Origin: a virus
Reading direction: 5' to 3' (one strand)
Length of the DNA: 64,000 nucleotides
Virus record (IMG/VR): IMGVR_UViG_3300029813_000255
Span: 1 to 64,000 of that record
Below the pieces are notes generated by a model. It saw only the letters and a program-made list of their open reading frames with translations. It had not been told where the DNA came from and ran no database searches. A program made the position numbers and the translations under genes. Positions 3,502 to 41,125 of the stretch are shown here, piece by piece (positions within the stretch are counted from its first letter, which is position 1; every line of letters starts with the position of its first letter).

Positions 3502-4239
3502 ATGAGTGAAGAAAAAATAATAGATGAAGACGAATTAGATGGTTTGCTTGAAGAAGCAAAAGGAGAGAGTACAGAGCAAGCCGGGACTGTAAAAGAGCCA
3601 GAACTTGAACTTGAATTGGAGCCAGAAAGTCAGGGAGGGGAAAGTAGAGATTTGAAAGTAGAGGAAGAGCCAAGTACAGGACAAAAGGAAGTTGTACTGT
3701 CCGAAATGGTTTCTACAAATACACCAGAACAGCTACAACAGCCACGGGAAGCTATACAGCCAATAACACCGCAAACCGGATTAGTAGCACCTGTTTGTTC
3801 GGTTCAAGAATCAGTTAGGATTTTCAAGGAATTTGAGCAGGCAAAGAAAGAAATTCTTAGTGCTAAGGATGTACTGTGGATAGGAAGTGATGGAAGACCG
3901 GCAATTGAGGGAGAGGGAAGTCCACATATAAAAAGAAGTGGTTGGAGAAAGCTTGCAAGATTCTTTGGTCTGAGTTGGAATATTGAAGATATTGAAAGGA
4001 TGGATATGCGATCAGGAGGCTATATGTATAAAGTACGTGTAAAGGTATGGCATCCGGCAGGGGCTTCAGTTGTTTCTGAAGGACTGGCGTCGTCACGTGA
4101 CAAATTCTTCACGAAGGGTAATAAGATAGAACCAGCAGAAGAAAATATTGTAATGAAAGCTGAGACAGTTGCAATAAACAGAGCAATAAGTGATATATTG
4201 GGAAGTGGTGAAGTATCAGGAGAAGAGACAGTAGATTAA
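3502..4239 (+). CDS. Putative ssDNA-annealing/recombination protein (Rad52/Sak-like fold) with acidic N-terminal tail
   Basis: KRSGWRKLARFFGLS...YKVRVKV...EGLASS...MKAETVAINRAISD pattern typical of viral annealing proteins. Confidence 0.55.
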   Translation: MSEEKIIDEDELDGLLEEAKGESTEQAGTVKEPELELELEPESQGGESRDLKVEEEPSTGQKEVVLSEMVSTNTPEQLQQPREAIQPITPQTGLVAPVCSVQESVRIFKEFEQAKKEILSAKDVLWIGSDGRPAIEGEGSPHIKRSGWRKLARFFGLSWNIEDIERMDMRSGGYMYKVRVKVWHPAGASVVSEGLASSRDKFFTKGNKIEPAEENIVMKAETVAINRAISDILGSGEVSGEETVD

Positions 4240-4250
4240 AGCTTTATATA
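4238..4250 (+). promoter_or_regulatory. Archaeal BRE-TATA promoter of the RAMP cassette
   Basis: AAAGCTTTATATA. Same motif class at 15711, 29471, 32553, 41124, 42799, 52667, 55610, 61591, 63296 (+) and 15820, 25551, 28751 (-). Confidence 0.7.
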
Positions 4251-4282
4251 CTACTAACTTCTATTGTTGCATAGTGGTAAGC

Positions 4283-4465
4283 ATGAATAGTAAAGAAGTA
4301 TTGTATAAAATAAGAAGAGTGACTATATCAGAAAAGGCAAAGAAAACGTACATCGCTTTAGAAGACGAAAATGGAGAAACAGCAGGAACACTGAGTTTGA
4401 GAGGGAAGAAGGAAGGAATGATCGGAATGAAAGAAGTTAGGATATTAGGAGAGGAAGATGAGTGA
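4283..4465 (+). CDS. Small hypothetical protein, first gene of the RAMP cassette
   Basis: ATG about 30 nt after the TATA box; overlaps the RAMP gene start. Confidence 0.55.
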   Translation: MNSKEVLYKIRRVTISEKAKKTYIALEDENGETAGTLSLRGKKEGMIGMKEVRILGEEDE

Positions 4466-5003
4466 GAAGTTTAAGGTAGAAATAAGAGGAACGAGACCTT
4501 TATTGATGAATTCTCCGGCAAATATATTGGAGAATCAAACAACAAAGCGATCAAGAGAAGACATAACTCATAAAGAAGAAGCAGAAAAAGTTTTATATAA
4601 AGATAAGGATAACAAGCCAATTGTTCCTGCTCTAAATATTTTAACTTGTTTAAGAGATTCAGCAGTAAACTTTAAAGTTCCAGGTAGAGGTAAAAAGACA
4701 TTTAAGAACTTTATTTTTGCGGGATTGCGTATTGAACCAGAGCAAATCTCTATTATTTCAAGCAACGGGTGGAATGTAGATATACGAACTGTTGTGATAA
4801 ACCGAGGACGAGTTCCAAAAATAAGACCAAGATTTGATGAATGGAATTTAGAGTTTCAGATAGAAATACTCGATCCTATTATCACAGCGACAAATTTGAA
4901 GCAGATCTTAGTTGATGCCGGAAAATTTAACGGGCTACTGGATTTCAGACCTTTATTTGGTCTTTTTGAAGTGATAAAGTTCGAGAAGGTTAAAAGTGAG
5001 TAG
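4458..5003 (+). CDS. Stand-alone Cas7/RAMP-like RNA-binding protein (Vipr-like)
   Basis: Beta1 KVEIRGTRPLLMN, PIVPALNILTCLRDSA helix, RPRFDEW strand, C-terminal Gly loop AGKFNGLLDFRPLFGLFEV; adjacent pentamer array. Confidence 0.75.
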   Translation: MSEKFKVEIRGTRPLLMNSPANILENQTTKRSREDITHKEEAEKVLYKDKDNKPIVPALNILTCLRDSAVNFKVPGRGKKTFKNFIFAGLRIEPEQISIISSNGWNVDIRTVVINRGRVPKIRPRFDEWNLEFQIEILDPIITATNLKQILVDAGKFNGLLDFRPLFGLFEVIKFEKVKSE

Positions 5004-5298
5004 GGAAGATATACATATAACAAATCTGGAAGTAGTAGTAAAAGAATATCTTGATAAAAATAGAATAGATTATATATTCCAATTTCCAACCAGAACAGGT
5101 TTCGTAATAGATTTTGTTATACCGAATAAGAAAGTAGCAATAGAGGTAGATGGAAATGTTTGGCATAGTAGTAAGGAAGCAATAAAACGAGATAGGTTCA
5201 AGGATTATCAACTAAAGAAAGAAGGTTGGAAGGTGGTGAGAATCAAGGAAGAAGAGATAAATAGTTTAGATAGTTTACTCTTACCTGTTATTAGGTGA
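4996..5298 (+). CDS. DUF559/Vsr-like PD-(D/E)xK endonuclease
   Basis: IDFVIPNKKVAIEVDGNVWH...RDRFKD..LKKEGWKVVRI. Confidence 0.85.
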   Translation: MSREDIHITNLEVVVKEYLDKNRIDYIFQFPTRTGFVIDFVIPNKKVAIEVDGNVWHSSKEAIKRDRFKDYQLKKEGWKVVRIKEEEINSLDSLLLPVIR

Positions 5299-5395
5299 GC
5301 AAGGCGGAGCGTGGCGCTGCACGGCTCGGTAAGGCGATGTTCGGCTTGGCTTGGAACGGCAAAGCGGGGCGGGGTAAGGCTTGGTTTGGCATGGA
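5296..5395 (+). repeat. Array of 20 NN-GGY-type pentamers
   Basis: tgAGC aaGGC ggAGC gtGGC gcTGC acGGC tcGGT aaGGC gaTGT tcGGC ttGGC ttGGA acGGC aaAGC ggGGC ggGGT aaGGC ttGGT ttGGC atGGA. Position-4 G is invariant and 13/20 units end in GGY; GC-rich island in an AT-rich genome. Confidence 0.92.
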
Positions 5396-5430
5396 AGAGA
5401 AGGAGACATTTTTCTCCTTCTCTTATTTTA
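5395..5430 (+). terminator. Perfect 12-bp hairpin plus T-tract
   Basis: AAGAGAAGGAGA-catttt-TCTCCTTCTCTT then ATTTTA. Confidence 0.7.
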
Positions 5431-5446
5431 ATATATAAGAAATAAT

Positions 5447-36740: not shown

Positions 36741-37187
36741 ATGGAAAGAAAGAACAACATGGACGCATTACTTCTTGATAAAGAATGGTTACAGCGGAAA
36801 TATACTAAAGAAAAATGCAGTGTTGATGATATTGCTAATTTGTTAAAATGCAGTACTCATTCGGTACGCGATGCAATATCCCACCATAATATACTGGTGC
36901 ATAGTAACAGAGAAAACGACGTTATTAAACCGTTATATCCAAAGAAGCACAATGAAATGAAAACCATAATAATGTGGCTGTGTGGTCTATGGAGTTTAGG
37001 ACTCGGATTCCGAATGTCTTTAGAGCTGTTGCTATCAGATGGTTGGATTCACGTGCCACAGCACCCATTGAACATCTATTTCGATTTTATCCCTCTCTGC
37101 GTGTTTGGATTAATAACAGTATGGTTTCAAACTAAGGAATTGTTTAAGGTGGTACAAAAGAAAGGATGGGTGGATGCAACAGAATGA
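36741..37187 (+). CDS. HTH domain fused to two TM helices
   Basis: KEWLQRKY...SVDDIANLLKCS..SVR; hydrophobic C-terminal half. Confidence 0.55.
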   Translation: MERKNNMDALLLDKEWLQRKYTKEKCSVDDIANLLKCSTHSVRDAISHHNILVHSNRENDVIKPLYPKKHNEMKTIIMWLCGLWSLGLGFRMSLELLLSDGWIHVPQHPLNIYFDFIPLCVFGLITVWFQTKELFKVVQKKGWVDATE

Positions 37188-40100
37188 GAATGAAATGGCT
37201 TTTTGTTGTTGTGCTTTTGTGTTTTATAATGAGTACAGTTAGTGGTGCTGCTGAATTTAAAGATACTGTACAATATCATACGGCATTATCGGAATCATGG
37301 TCTGGAGATGGAACTATCGTGAACTATCCTGCTGCATATCCATATTCTAAAGCGATAGAGCTTTATTCCGGTGGTTTAAAGTCCGCAACAACTATTAACA
37401 AAACTTTAAGCGACTATTGGTCTTTTTATGTACGTGATCATAGTGGTACCGATTATGGAGATGAATTTTTGGGTGTTTTGTTTTATGATGAAGATGGTGG
37501 TTTGATACCAAGTGGACATATTTCCATGTTTTGGGGGGGTAATGATGCTTATGTTTTACGTGAAGTACACTTAACTACAAATATTCAACATATTGGACAT
37601 TCTGGTTATATAGAATTACAACGTGAAGGTGATCAAATGTATTTACGAGTTGATGGAGTAGATAAAGGTAGTTTAGGACCATGTACGAAAAGACCGGCGT
37701 ATATGCGAATATCTAATAATCGTGCTCACAGCAGTAAGTATATCGCTACTCGTTTTGATTCAATAACCACTGGAGATGGTATTGTGGGTATAGGACACCA
37801 AGCTAATCCTTTACATAGCGTTACAGAAGTTGCAAATAACGAATTGGATGTAGAATGGACATTAAAATCTATACCATTTAGTGAATACACAAATTCGCAA
37901 TACGATATGAAAGTAAAACGGGCTACATGGAATGAATTTTATAATGTGACTACTATAAAGGCAGCAGGAGATTCAGTAACTTTACCACGAGGATTTGTTA
38001 AATACAATTGGTCAAGTTTGTTTCAAGCAAATCATTTTGGATTGTATTGGTTTGAAACATATAAAAGTGGTAGCGGAGAACCAGAATTGATAGATCAAGA
38101 TTGGATTTTCTATAAAGATATAGGCGAACCTTCCACAATAAACATAGAAGACACAGAATACGCAATAGGTGAAGCAATGAATATATCTTATTACATAGAT
38201 TCTCCTGACTTCGGAGCAAACCAATACAAGATACAGATTTTTGATGCAACGGGACAGCTCAAAGACGAACGTGTTTTGACTATGCAAGCAGCCACAGAGC
38301 AAATCACATCTACAATAGACTGGGAAGAAGGTATGTTATATGCCGTTTTGGTGAAGGATACGAAACCAGCGATTATAGAAGACCCACCGGAAGATATTAT
38401 AGATTTAGCTTATGACTTTTGCACACTTTCAAATGTAATTTATATTACGGGAAAAGTGTATGATGCTTCCAATGCTGATAATTTAGTTGATGGAACGCTA
38501 TTAGATAATGTATCGTTGAATTGGACACAAGCAGGCACTATTTACAACACTACTTCAGATGCTAACGGCAATTACGAATTTACTGATCCTACTACACTTT
38601 TGGAAATAGAATGGTTTCAGGATGTTCCGATAACAGTACACGCAGAGAAAACGGGGTACACACACTCAGATTTCGATATGACTATAATTAAAGCGGGACG
38701 ATACACAGTAGATATTTATATGACACCGCCCTACGATTATGAAAACATATCTATTTCGGGTGTTGTCGCCGATGATATATTTCATCAAGCAATACCATAT
38801 GCCGAAGTACATATATGGAATGCTACGTGGTCTAATACAACATATACTAATACGTGGGGTTGGTATGAATTCAATAATCTTACAAACGGCACCTATAACA
38901 TGTATGCAAAGAAGGAAACATATAGACAAAGTGGTACAATACAAGTAAGTGCATGGAATATGTCATTAACGTTAGATAGTTGTGATACTTTAGATTACGT
39001 GGAATCAACTTTAGATACCTGTGACAGCGTAACAGGATGGAATTCGGATAATACGTTAACATTAAATACCACTGATTACATAAAAGGAACAGGATCGTTA
39101 CAGAGTGTAGGTACAAATACAATGGATTTCAATAAGACTTTTTCCGCTTTCAACTCTAATGTAACAAAGGAGGGATATTTCTATTTCTATTCAAAAATAG
39201 ACAACACAACAAATATAAGTTCAGTGAATGTAACAGTCACACTGAGTAGTAATGCAACAGGGACAACAGATACGTTAGTGTGGGAAATAAACAAAACACT
39301 TTTTACTGATACATGGAATCTTACTTTTTTGGAGTTGTCACAAGCAGTGGAAACGGGTACGTGTGATTTATCAGCAATTCGTTTCTTTGAATTAGAAAGC
39401 ACAAAATCTGCGAGTATCACTACAAAAATAGACTTTTTAGCGTTTATCGAATATGTTGATTGGAATTCTAATATTAATCTATCGCTTGATACGTCAGACA
39501 AACAAGAAGGTACAGCTTCTATATTAGCGAGCGGTAAAGCATGGATACCTGGTTCCTACGATCATTATTTTGGTTGGTCCCCCGGTGGAACAATACCTCC
39601 TCCGCCAGATGTACCCATTCCTGAATATTGGGTTGACCGATATTGGAGTGCACCCCCACCGGGAGCAAACAGTTTTTCATCATCAAATGAACTGGGACGG
39701 TTACAAATATGGTATAAACCTGACCATACAAAAGATCGTGATATTATATTAGCTTCCGGCGATACTACAAATTATTTGTACTGGCAAGATGTTGGTACTG
39801 TGGGTTCGTGGAATTTAGAACGTTTATTCTTTAAAGATGCATATGAAAATGGAACTATGAATTTTGGTGGAATACAATGGTTTGTTTTGTTGGGAAATCG
39901 TTCGGGTAGTGCAGATGCAGAGGATCGTATAGACAATATAGAATTAGTACAAACAGGAGGAACACGTCAAAACTTCTTTTTGGGCAAGTACTACGATTTA
40001 ACAGTTCATGCTAAAGATATGGATACCAGGTATACAATTACTTCATTCACAGCTATATTAGATAGTACAACAGTAGTCGAGACAACAACTGGTGCGATTG

Positions 40101-41125
40101 TTTTTCCGAATGTGACCTATGGTATCTATCCTTTAGAAGTCAGTGCAAATGGTTACTACACAAACAAGCAATACGTTTTTATGGGACAGGATACAGAACA
40201 AACAGTCTATCTCACAAAAATAGAGAATGTCAGTACTACTGGTGTAGGACAAGCTTACGCGCCAATTCCAGTTGAATTTCGTGTAATAAATATAGGTGGA
40301 ATTCCAAAAAGTAATGTAAACGTGTCGGCTGTTGGTATTGAAACTACAATGGGTGCATGGTCATGGCTCCAAGATATTTTTGGATATTCAAGTAAGGTGG
40401 AGCTTCAAAACACAAGCATGAACGGTACAACTGACAGTATGGGACACTTAACCTTTGTAATGGTAGAAACTATTAAATACAAAATAGACTTCACAAAACC
40501 GTCAGAAGGCATAAATGAAACCTTGTATTTCTATCCGAAAGAGAAACAATACACAATTGTTGTCACATCTCCCCGTGCGCCAAGTATGATAGATTATGTT
40601 GACTGGAATCTCAGTGTTCAACCTGAAAATTCAACGCATTCAAACCTGACTCTCTTCTACAACGATACTATGGCTCAAACGAGTAATTTGAGGTTCTTTG
40701 TTAAAGACGAAAACAGAAGCGAAATTTACAATCAATCATTTAGTAGTGAAAGTATTATTAGCGTTGGTTACCTCGTGAATAAGTCATCTGGTCAATCGTA
40801 CTTTTGGGGGTTTAATGTGACTCACGATGAGTTTGATGAATTCAAAGCGACAAAAGCTATTACTTTCAAGAGTAGGTTGATTGATCTGAAACTCAAACCC
40901 GGAAATGAAAATTACTACACCTGGATTTCTGTTTGCTTACTTGTTATGATCTCTACATTATTTTCTGCCGTAACGAGTAAATTTGGGTACGTTGTGATTC
41001 CGTTTATGGGTGGATTTTTCTATTGGATTGGCTGGCTGGAAATTTCTGCTGTCATTCTTAGTGTTGTTATGTTTTTCGGAGTCATTTTATATATGGGCAA
41101 GAAAGAAAGGGAGAGTGGACTATAA
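37166..41125 (+). CDS. Large secreted, C-terminally membrane-anchored virion/adhesin glycoprotein
   Basis: Signal peptide, carboxypeptidase-regulatory-like Ig domains, many N-x-S/T sequons, three C-terminal TM helices. Confidence 0.8.
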   Translation: MGGCNRMRMKWLFVVVLLCFIMSTVSGAAEFKDTVQYHTALSESWSGDGTIVNYPAAYPYSKAIELYSGGLKSATTINKTLSDYWSFYVRDHSGTDYGDEFLGVLFYDEDGGLIPSGHISMFWGGNDAYVLREVHLTTNIQHIGHSGYIELQREGDQMYLRVDGVDKGSLGPCTKRPAYMRISNNRAHSSKYIATRFDSITTGDGIVGIGHQANPLHSVTEVANNELDVEWTLKSIPFSEYTNSQYDMKVKRATWNEFYNVTTIKAAGDSVTLPRGFVKYNWSSLFQANHFGLYWFETYKSGSGEPELIDQDWIFYKDIGEPSTINIEDTEYAIGEAMNISYYIDSPDFGANQYKIQIFDATGQLKDERVLTMQAATEQITSTIDWEEGMLYAVLVKDTKPAIIEDPPEDIIDLAYDFCTLSNVIYITGKVYDASNADNLVDGTLLDNVSLNWTQAGTIYNTTSDANGNYEFTDPTTLLEIEWFQDVPITVHAEKTGYTHSDFDMTIIKAGRYTVDIYMTPPYDYENISISGVVADDIFHQAIPYAEVHIWNATWSNTTYTNTWGWYEFNNLTNGTYNMYAKKETYRQSGTIQVSAWNMSLTLDSCDTLDYVESTLDTCDSVTGWNSDNTLTLNTTDYIKGTGSLQSVGTNTMDFNKTFSAFNSNVTKEGYFYFYSKIDNTTNISSVNVTVTLSSNATGTTDTLVWEINKTLFTDTWNLTFLELSQAVETGTCDLSAIRFFELESTKSASITTKIDFLAFIEYVDWNSNINLSLDTSDKQEGTASILASGKAWIPGSYDHYFGWSPGGTIPPPPDVPIPEYWVDRYWSAPPPGANSFSSSNELGRLQIWYKPDHTKDRDIILASGDTTNYLYWQDVGTVGSWNLERLFFKDAYENGTMNFGGIQWFVLLGNRSGSADAEDRIDNIELVQTGGTRQNFFLGKYYDLTVHAKDMDTRYTITSFTAILDSTTVVETTTGAIVFPNVTYGIYPLEVSANGYYTNKQYVFMGQDTEQTVYLTKIENVSTTGVGQAYAPIPVEFRVINIGGIPKSNVNVSAVGIETTMGAWSWLQDIFGYSSKVELQNTSMNGTTDSMGHLTFVMVETIKYKIDFTKPSEGINETLYFYPKEKQYTIVVTSPRAPSMIDYVDWNLSVQPENSTHSNLTLFYNDTMAQTSNLRFFVKDENRSEIYNQSFSSESIISVGYLVNKSSGQSYFWGFNVTHDEFDEFKATKAITFKSRLIDLKLKPGNENYYTWISVCLLVMISTLFSAVTSKFGYVVIPFMGGFFYWIGWLEISAVILSVVMFFGVILYMGKKERESGL

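What the first reader, a model, noticed from the sequence alone, without database searches (positions are those of the whole stretch)
4078..5395. Array dinucleotides decode, skipping wobble bases, to a diverged allele of the neighbouring gene
Seen: the NN series from 5301 is aa gg gt gc ac tc aa ga tc tt tt ac aa gg gg aa tt tt at. Read as NNx triplets this gives (K/N)-G-V-A-T-S-(K/N)-(D/E)-S-(F/L)-(F/L)-T-(K/N)-G-G-(K/N)-(F/L). The upstream annealing-protein gene at 4078-4128 reads gaa gga ctg gcg tcg tca cgt gac aaa ttc ttc acg aag ggt aat aag ata = E-G-L-A-S-S-R-D-K-F-F-T-K-G-N-K-I. Over units 5306-5376, 10 of 15 dinucleotides match codon positions 1-2 exactly (22/30 nt), including five in a row. 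Several mismatches are conservative (L/V, S/T, R/K). A rough binomial estimate is about 1e-8 per site, though the span was chosen post hoc. Inference: the guide uses a 2-on/1-off code in register with codons, so synonymous escape is ineffective. It would target the ortholog in a related competing virus, while this genome's own copy is protected by mismatches.
Basis: partly seen in the sequence, partly recalled or inferred. Interest (0 to 1): 0.97.

Follow-up and report, generated by a model that had tools for sequence, protein, structure and literature searches.

The report
VIPR guide RNA targeting rivals' annealing gene
The five-base repeat array is the guide RNA of a VIPR system, a CRISPR-related viral DNA-targeting system first described in 2026. 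Its variable letters spell the neighbouring recombination gene as rival viruses carry it, not this virus's own diverged copy.

Summary
Window 5301-5395 is 19 NN-GGY pentamers, flanked by a conserved 5' hairpin and a terminator. It lies just downstream of a 181-aa Cas7-like protein gene (4458-5003). This is a VIPR locus (Vipr protein plus vrRNA; bioRxiv 10.64898/2026.04.26.720920).

Inside the window alone, the match to 4078-4128 (24/34 nt) is no better than chance: 29% of order-shuffled arrays do as well.

The evidence from outside the window decides it:
- Metagenomic orthologues of the neighbouring Rad52-like annealing gene read G-V-A-T-S-K-D-S-F-F-T-K-G-G at that site.
- That equals the decoded units 2-15 exactly, a run of 14. 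Permuted arrays reach 8 at most, and twelve sister guides reach 6 at most.
- The virus's own allele scores 9/14, among the lowest in the family.
- At DNA level, cassette-free relatives match 26-27/32 and self matches 23/32.

The ~1.2-kb cassette (small ORF, vipr, Vsr/DUF559-like nuclease, vrRNA) is mobile. A homologous cassette at another site also aims at its own flanking gene.

The kind is known. This is a new member with a homing-like layout, and this scan has noted that layout before on other DNA.

The parts
3502..4239 (+). Gene for a Rad52-like single-strand annealing protein (245 aa). This is the gene family the guide targets, and this copy is the diverged, poorly matching allele.
   Evidence: No Pfam, PHROG or PDB sequence hit. 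The AF2 model has a core pLDDT of 76-92 for residues 150-230. The top 17 Foldseek hits are human RAD52 (E 1.5e-4 to 1.6e-3), and Mgm101 also appears. There are 90 orthologue clusters in metagenomes.
4078..4128 (+). Self pseudo-target: the site in the virus's own annealing gene that aligns with the guide.
   Evidence: 23/32 NN letters over units 1-16 and 9/14 decoded residues. Mismatches are at units 3, 5, 7, 9 and 15 (L for V, S for T, R for K, K for S, N for G).
4240..4273 (+). Left end of the mobile cassette, with a TATA-like CTTTATATA (4242-4250) directly after the stop codon of the annealing gene.
   Evidence: Synteny break against L110 and L111. The same motif sits at the left end of the homologous cassette in L056.
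4283..4465 (+). Small conserved ORF (about 60 aa) of the cassette; a candidate accessory (vap-like) gene of unknown function.
   Evidence: tblastx gives 77-81% identity to L056 9784-9996, directly upstream of vipr there. No family hit.
4458..5003 (+). vipr: a 181-aa single-domain RAMP (Cas7-like) protein.
   Evidence: AF2 pLDDT 91.5. Foldseek hits Cmr4, Csm3 and type VII Cas7 at E 2e-6 to 1e-5. The G-rich loop is conserved: G155, G159, D162, R164, P165, G168, F170. tblastn reaches the Felixounavirus group of phage SUSP1, for example SUSP2, at E 6e-6 over 92% of the protein. It matches phrog_4652. Period-5 GG arrays flank homologues on the same strand in nearly all of the 44 IMG/VR loci.
4996..5298 (+). 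Vsr/DUF559-type (MTES_1575) endonuclease; the candidate nuclease accessory gene of this VIPR clade.
   Evidence: Pfam PF18741 at 2.3e-12 and PF04480 at 1.7e-8. A homologue lies beside vipr in 25 of the fetched loci.
5280..5299 (+). 5' hairpin handle of the vrRNA (CTTACC / GGTGAG arms, two inner pairs, TTAT loop).
   Evidence: Conserved in 12 vrRNAs of the clade. 89% of cells are paired, against 27-45% with slid partners, and three pairs change on both sides.
5301..5395 (+). vrRNA repeat tract of 19 NN-GGY units. Units 2-15 (5306-5375) are the part that matches targets. Units 17-19 match nothing, and the clade's arrays end in similar AAGGY/ATGGA units.
5394..5429 (+). Terminator-like hairpin followed by a T run, closing the vrRNA.
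   Evidence: A 12-bp stem in the MFE fold. The same hairpin follows the solo vrRNA in L109.

Best explanation
Window 4240-5430 is a roughly 1.2-kb mobile VIPR cassette in an uncultivated virus of about 80 kb from marine sediment, probably an archaeal virus.

How it is expected to work, from the published mechanism:
- Vipr protomers (4458-5003) coat the vrRNA (5280-5429).
- Each protomer sequesters one GGY and presents the neighbouring NN.
- The NN series pairs with double-stranded DNA, skipping every third base.

The target. Units 2-15 specify the codons for G-V-A-T-S-K-D-S-F-F-T-K-G-G. This is the consensus form of a conserved segment of the Rad52-like annealing gene that lies directly upstream of the cassette. 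That form is carried by related viruses, including relatives that lack the cassette. Because the skipped base is the wobble base, synonymous changes cannot protect a target. This virus's own allele differs by five amino-acid changes in the 14 codons, so it falls below the match level considered effective.

What is shown here:
- the family identity of the protein and the RNA;
- the exact decoded match to rival alleles, and the poor match to self;
- the presence/absence polymorphism of the cassette.

What is inferred:
- that the ribonucleoprotein binds the rival allele during co-infection;
- that it then silences the gene, or marks it for the adjacent Vsr-like nuclease.
For: - Vipr fold and homology.
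- Arrays flank vipr homologues on the same strand: 258 arrays on the gene strand against 11 on the other.
- Published system and rule.
- Decoded run of 14 residues exact in P0123, P0133, P0135 and P0140. 2000 permutations reach at most 8 (mean 4.9). Twelve other guides of the clade reach at most 6 on the same protein set.
- Self scores 9/14, in the bottom 6 of 75 family members.
- DNA level: L111 27/32, L109 26/32, L110 24/32, self 23/32. All are in codon register on the sense strand.
- Skip 1 alone gives high-quality hits among 181 arrays searched against 0.68 Mb.
- Relatives' guides hit this genome at 40,424-40,495 and at 68,652-68,700.
- L110 and L111 are syntenic but lack the cassette.
Against: - DNA of the four perfect-peptide orthologues could not be fetched. 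The two Ser codons (units 6 and 9) could be AGY instead of TCN, as Ser-9 is in L109, which would give 24-26/28 rather than 28/28.
- No exact 10-unit match exists in IMG/VR.
- Within the window the self-match is statistically unremarkable.
- The published vrRNAs have 9-16 repeats and a 3' tail. This one has 19 units and a 5' hairpin, so its mature ends are unknown.
- There are no expression or binding data for this locus.
- The host is not established.
Confidence: 0.85

Rival explanations
1. RNA-guided homing, or a linked poison-antidote element. This refines the best explanation. The cassette spreads like a free-standing homing endonuclease gene. The guide marks the flanking gene of cassette-free relatives close to the insertion point. 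The Vsr-like nuclease cuts or nicks there. Repair from the cassette-bearing genome then co-converts the resistant allele and the cassette.
For: - Two homologous cassettes sit at two different sites, and each guide aims at the last 115-200 nt of the gene immediately upstream of its own insertion point. G000 sits after the annealing gene. L056/L055 sit after a helicase-like gene, and G000 is 'empty' at that site.
- The L055 guide matches the G000 allele at 27/32 and its own allele at 24/32.
- A nuclease gene lies beside vipr in 25 loci.
- The closest relative that carries the cassette (P0122 with P0002 on a 2.2-kb contig) shares the resistant allele.
- A close relative's contig has a diverged 92-nt patch at 3999-4090, abutting the target.
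Against: - No cleavage is shown, and characterised VIPRs silence rather than cut.
- Tight linkage of guide and resistant allele is also expected for a pure silencing weapon.
- Only two independent insertion sites could be evaluated.
- Other guides of the clade (L054, and the second guide of L066) aim at genes 8 kb or more from any cassette.
Confidence: 0.4
2. The guide regulates the virus's own annealing gene through the partial 72% match (autoregulation).
For: The best 1-nt-skip match in the whole genome is the self site, in codon register.
Against: - The guide fits the family consensus far better than it fits self: 14/14 against 9/14.
- Self is among the worst-matching alleles in the family.
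- The paper found no self hits at 80% or above in any system.
Confidence: 0.05
3. The resemblance between the NN series and the gene is chance, and the array has another role such as a protein-binding 3' UTR, a small ORF (5295-5438), or a G-quadruplex tract.
For: The window-only shuffle test is not significant. A 47-aa ORF overlaps the array.
Against: - The 14-residue exact run compares with a permutation maximum of 8.
- The arrays accompany vipr homologues in about 100 loci.
- The constraint is on nucleotides, not on a reading frame: GGY recurs every 5 nt, so the same motif falls in all three codon phases.
Confidence: 0.01
4. The vrRNA is a decoy that diverts a rival's Vipr, as satellite solo vrRNAs do, rather than an offensive guide.
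For: Solo vrRNAs exist in this group (L109), and decoy use has been published for satellites.
Against: Here the vrRNA sits with an intact vipr and nuclease in one operon-like cassette. It spells a conserved essential-looking viral gene, not a host decoy site.
Confidence: 0.05

Closest known systems
VIPR systems (Vipr + vrRNA + vap). The experimental exemplar is type II of Escherichia phage SUSP1 (bioRxiv 10.64898/2026.04.26.720920, 10.64898/2026.04.26.720927, 10.64898/2026.10.15.759431).
   Same: - A small stand-alone RAMP protein.
- A guide made of GGY/NN pentamers on the same strand, next to the gene.
- NN pairing with a 1-nt skip on the wobble base.
- A target in a competing viral element.
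- No self hit at 80% or above.
   Different: - A single vrRNA of 19 units with a conserved 5' hairpin instead of the SUSP1 3' pseudoknot tail.
- The accessory gene is a Vsr/DUF559-type nuclease, and it is carried by a virus. The paper reports nuclease vaps only in the types it calls host-defensive.
- The target is the allele of the gene flanking the cassette.
- The virus is probably archaeal.
- I could not assign the type number (I-VII), because figures and tables are not held.
Free-standing homing endonuclease genes of T4-like phages (Seg/Mob; intronless homing and marker exclusion). This comparison rests on established knowledge, not on a test here.
   Same: - A mobile cassette between conserved genes.
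- A target close to the insertion point, in relatives that lack the cassette.
- The carrier's own site is protected by sequence differences.
   Different: Specificity here would come from an RNA guide and a RAMP filament, not from the nuclease's own DNA-binding domain. Cleavage is unproven.
Cas7 backbone of class 1 CRISPR effectors (Csm3, Cmr4, type VII Cas7).
   Same: Same fold: RRM core, G-rich loop and thumb. The protein polymerises along a guide with a fixed periodicity.
   Different: - No CRISPR array, no other cas genes, no adaptation module.
- A 5-nt period with only 2 pairing bases, instead of a 6-nt period with 5.
Solo (orphan) vrRNAs of satellites and phages (bioRxiv 10.64898/2026.10.15.759431).
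   Same: Relative L109 has only a hairpin, a repeat tract and a terminator at the same site after the annealing gene, with no vipr.
   Different: The window's vrRNA is not solo. The L109 repeats are degenerate (NNG-A/C-T).

Membership tests
VIPR | Vipr: a small single-RRM RAMP with a G-rich loop and thumb, outside any CRISPR-cas context. | tested here: met
   AF2 pLDDT 91.5. Cas7 (Csm3/Cmr4/type VII) Foldseek hits at E about 1e-6. The G-loop is invariant across 27 homologues. No CRISPR-like repeat array was found in the window.
VIPR | Sequence homology to an experimentally characterised Vipr clade (SUSP1, Felixounavirus). | tested here: met
   tblastn gave 129 phage records, including Escherichia phage SUSP2 and many Felixounavirus records, at 26% identity over 92% of the protein and E 6e-6. 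SUSP1 itself was not among the 40 rows shown.
VIPR | vrRNA: four or more tandem YNNGG/GGYNN repeats beside vipr, with GGY conserved and NN hypervariable between relatives. | tested here: met
   19 units here. 258 arrays on the gene strand across about 100 loci. The NN series differ between relatives that are 60-66% identical in protein.
VIPR | Natural target found under the 1-nt skip rule at 80% NN match or better, in another mobile element, in codon register. | tested here: met
   L111 84% and L109 81% over units 1-16. Decoded 14/14 in four orthologue clusters. Skip 1 alone is enriched. DNA of the perfect-peptide contigs was not obtainable.
VIPR | No self-targeting at 80% NN match or better. 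| tested here: met
   The best self site is 23/32 (72%).
VIPR | The vrRNA is expressed, co-purifies with Vipr, and the complex binds gapped dsDNA targets. | not testable with these tools
   The only runs found are DNA contigs of one marine-sediment study.
Free-standing homing endonuclease-like mobile cassette | Presence/absence polymorphism of the cassette at a fixed site between conserved genes. | tested here: met
   G000 is occupied, and L110 and L111 are empty after the annealing gene. L056 is occupied and G000 empty after the helicase-like gene.
Free-standing homing endonuclease-like mobile cassette | The recognition site lies near the insertion point in cassette-free genomes, and the carrier's own site is resistant. 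| tested here: met
   Targets lie 115-200 nt upstream of the insertion point in both cassettes. Self matches are 72-75%, against 81-84% for cassette-free alleles.
Free-standing homing endonuclease-like mobile cassette | The nuclease cleaves the recognition site and the cassette is copied in by repair. | not testable with these tools
   Only the domain assignment (PF18741/PF04480) and the conserved adjacency are available.
CRISPR-Cas (class 1) | A CRISPR repeat-spacer array plus a multi-gene cas operon. | tested here: not met
   No such array appears in the tandem or direct repeat scans, and the neighbours are replication genes.

The most novel reading that the evidence does not exclude
In this clade of probably archaeal viruses, VIPR cassettes act as RNA-programmed homing elements or linked poison-antidote gene drives. 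Each cassette carries one guide against the sensitive allele of the gene it sits beside, a Vsr-like nuclease to break that allele in co-infecting relatives, and a tightly linked resistant allele. The cassette would therefore spread by gene conversion. None of the three VIPR preprints' text that I searched mentions homing. This scan's earlier notes report the same layout on other DNA.
Probability: 0.4. Interest if true: 0.85.

Novelty: new member of a known kind. Interest (0 to 1): 0.6.

Why it matters
This gives a clean natural example, in a probably archaeal virus, of three things:
- a guide with a consensus-matching target;
- a resistant self allele that escaped through amino-acid changes;
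- cassette-free relatives at the same site.

Because the cassette is mobile, carries a nuclease, and aims at its own flank, it also makes the question 'can VIPR drive its own spread?' directly testable with four small parts.

Tried and rejected
- **Rfam and ARAGORN.** Neither found anything in the window.
- **Early readings of the array.** I first considered a TRAP-like protein-binding repeat, a G-quadruplex tract, and the overlapping 47-aa ORF. I dropped all three once arrays were seen beside vipr homologues everywhere and the VIPR papers were found.
- **Window-only shuffle and skip controls.** These were ambiguous.
- **Exact 10-unit pattern scans of IMG/VR.** 0 hits.
- **Protein-seeded scans of IMG/VR.** The annealing gene found no relatives there. 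Alignment A1 was too diverse to seed a scan.
- **The look-up of encoding contigs.** The contigs encoding P0123, P0133, P0135 and P0140 could therefore not be read, and the listing of cluster members gave no accession numbers.
- **The single metagenome scan.** I spent it on vipr relatives. None of those loci contained the annealing gene.
- **Read laying on two marine-sediment runs.** It showed only short contigs of close relatives, with no cover over 4024-4079 and no perfect-target allele.
- **Profile of the annealing protein against PDB sequences.** No hit. Only the fold search found RAD52.
Full report
**1. The observation.**
Window 5301-5395 consists of 19 five-base units of the form NN-GGY. 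G is at position 4 in all 19 units, G at position 3 in 15, and C/T at position 5 in 17. The array is unique in the window and far beyond chance as a pattern: 11 overlapping pattern matches against 0.35 expected. It is preceded by a hairpin (5280-5299) and followed by a 12-bp hairpin with a T run (5394-5429).

Aligned as NNx with codons at 4078-4128, it matches 24/34 letters.

That figure did not survive a proper in-window control:
- 29% of arrays with shuffled unit order find an equally good site somewhere in the 128,000 positions of the window.
- Skips of 0 and 4 give equal maxima.

On the window alone the claim would have failed.

**2. What the array is.**
The 181-aa ORF just upstream (4458-5003) has a relative in an IMG/VR virus (L008, 60% identity). 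That relative carries two such arrays, each behind a hairpin with the same TTAT loop and with compensatory stem changes.

Alignment-seeded scans then fetched 44 viral and 56 metagenomic loci encoding homologues. Nearly all carry period-5 GG arrays directly beside the gene. I counted 258 arrays on the gene's strand and 11 on the other.

The protein folds with high confidence (pLDDT 91.5). Its best structural matches are the Cas7 backbone subunits Cmr4, Csm3 and type VII Cas7, and it has an invariant glycine-rich loop.

A literature search found the system in three 2026 preprints: VIPR, made of a Vipr RAMP protein plus vrRNAs of alternating GGY/NN. The preprints report the following:
- The NN bases pair with double-stranded DNA while one base is skipped.
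- The skipped base usually falls on the codon wobble position.
- Natural targets lie in competing phages, satellites and prophages.

The window's Vipr is detectably homologous to the Felixounavirus proteins of the SUSP1 group. The locus is therefore a VIPR system.

**3. The specific target.**
The 245-aa neighbour (3502-4239) has no family hit by sequence. Its modelled core resembles the RAD52 N-terminal domain, so 'annealing protein' is reasonable.

A database search found 90 orthologue clusters. Eight more clusters differ at one residue.

| Comparison | Longest decoded run |
|---|---|
| Window vrRNA against the orthologues | 14 |
| 2000 order-permuted arrays, same proteins | mean 4.9, maximum 8 |
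| Twelve other vrRNAs of the same viral clade | at most 6 |

The virus's own allele scores 9/14, in the lowest 6 of 75 family members. Its closest relative (P0122), which shares a 2.2-kb contig with a Vipr that is 83% identical, has the same unusual allele.

DNA was available for three relatives found in MAG contigs. All matches are in codon register on the sense strand.

| Sequence | NN letters matched, units 1-16 |
|---|---|
| L111 | 27/32 |
| L109 | 26/32 |
| L110 | 24/32 |
| Self | 23/32 |

Twelve of the 14 residues fix their first two codon letters, so the perfect-peptide alleles must match at least 24/28. They reach 28/28 if both serines are TCN. In L109 the second serine is AGC.

Units 17-19 match none of the target alleles aligned. 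The arrays of the clade end in similar AAGGY/ATGGA units, so these terminal units are probably not part of the guide.

**4. An independent check of the rule.**
I searched 181 distinct arrays against all fetched DNA (0.68 Mb) in 12-unit blocks. Eight arrays reached 21/24 or better with skip 1. None did with skip 0 or 2.

The hits include the following:
- The guide of L054 against window 40,424-40,495, inside gene 37166-41125, with 11 perfect units in a row.
- The guides of L053 and L055/L056 against G000 68,652-68,700 (27/32). This lies in a helicase-like gene outside the window.
- One phage guide (L042) against the vipr genes of a dozen other phages.

So this genome is itself a target of its relatives' guides, which fits inter-viral conflict.

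**5. The cassette is mobile and aims at its own flank.**
- tblastx shows that L110 and L111 are syntenic with G000 1.3-10 kb but lack 4240-5430.
- L109 has only a degenerate solo vrRNA at that spot, with the same hairpin and terminator.
- L056 carries the homologous cassette (small ORF, vipr, vrRNA, nuclease) between the orthologues of G000 68,865 and 69,268, where G000 has no cassette.
- Both cassettes start right after the stop codon of the upstream gene with a TATA-like CTTTATATA.
- In both cases the guide's target lies 115-200 nt upstream of that stop codon. In both cases the carrier's own allele matches worse (72-75%) than the cassette-free allele (81-84%).
- A Vsr/DUF559-type nuclease gene lies beside vipr in 25 loci.

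This is the layout of free-standing homing endonuclease genes, here with an RNA guide. It is equally the layout expected of a tightly linked weapon and resistance allele. Which of the two applies, cutting with gene conversion or silencing only, cannot be decided from sequence.

**6. Comparison and novelty.**
The kind of system, its code and its role in viral competition are already in print as preprints, so the finding is a new member of a known kind.

It differs from the characterised type II systems in these ways:
- a single 19-unit guide with a 5' hairpin handle;
- a virus-borne nuclease accessory gene;
- flank-directed targeting;
- a probably archaeal virus, judging from the family-B polymerase, the archaeo-eukaryotic-type primase hit, and orthologues binned with Aenigmatarchaeota and Syntropharchaeia.

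The word 'homing' does not occur in the discovery or competition preprints. This scan's earlier notes, however, describe the same flank-targeting layout, and a DUF559-type nuclease, on other genomes. Those notes are unchecked by me and are not counted as evidence.

**7. Limits.**
- Read laying gave no cover of the perfect allele.
- No expression, binding or cleavage data exist for this locus.

Noticed in passing
window 40424-40495 (inside ORF 37166-41125): A relative's vrRNA (L054, array at 1018-1187) matches this site under the 1-nt skip rule, with 11 perfect units in a row and 23/24 in the best 12-unit block. So this virus is itself a predicted target of a sibling's VIPR.
   Followed up: partly
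G000 68652-68700 (outside the window; helicase-like gene 67701-68849): The guides of L053 and L055/L056 match this site at 27/32. L056 carries the homologous VIPR cassette directly after its own copy of this gene, and G000 is empty there.
   Followed up: yes
L109:1578-1730: A solo vrRNA (hairpin, about 18 degenerate NNG-A/C-T units, and the same terminator) sits directly after the annealing gene with no vipr or nuclease. It is either a decayed cassette or an orphan guide.
   Followed up: partly
L058:1395-1530: The vrRNA beside an intact vipr and nuclease uses NNGAT units instead of NNGGY, which is a variant repeat consensus.
   Followed up: no
L040:4254-5071; L043:3628-4033: The bacterial-phage relatives show very different array architectures. 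One has ten tandem vrRNAs of 11-13 units separated by a GGAATCATATTCAT-like element. Another has a continuous tract of 82 units.
   Followed up: no
L042:3573-3745: One guide matches the antisense strand of the vipr genes of about a dozen other phage loci (21-23/24). This fits the published 'VIPR targets other VIPRs'.
   Followed up: partly
window 3999-4090: In a marine-sediment run, a contig otherwise close to the window replaces this 92-nt patch with a diverged stretch of equal length. The patch abuts the guide's site. This may be a local conversion tract.
   Followed up: no
ARAGORN and Rfam (gathering thresholds) report nothing in the window.
   Followed up: partly
L008:3563-4085: In this relative the nuclease gene lies between two vrRNAs, and its start codon overlaps the last unit (ATGGA) of the first array. 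The window's array ends with the same ATGGA followed by similar letters, so the gene order within the cassette has been rearranged.
   Followed up: no
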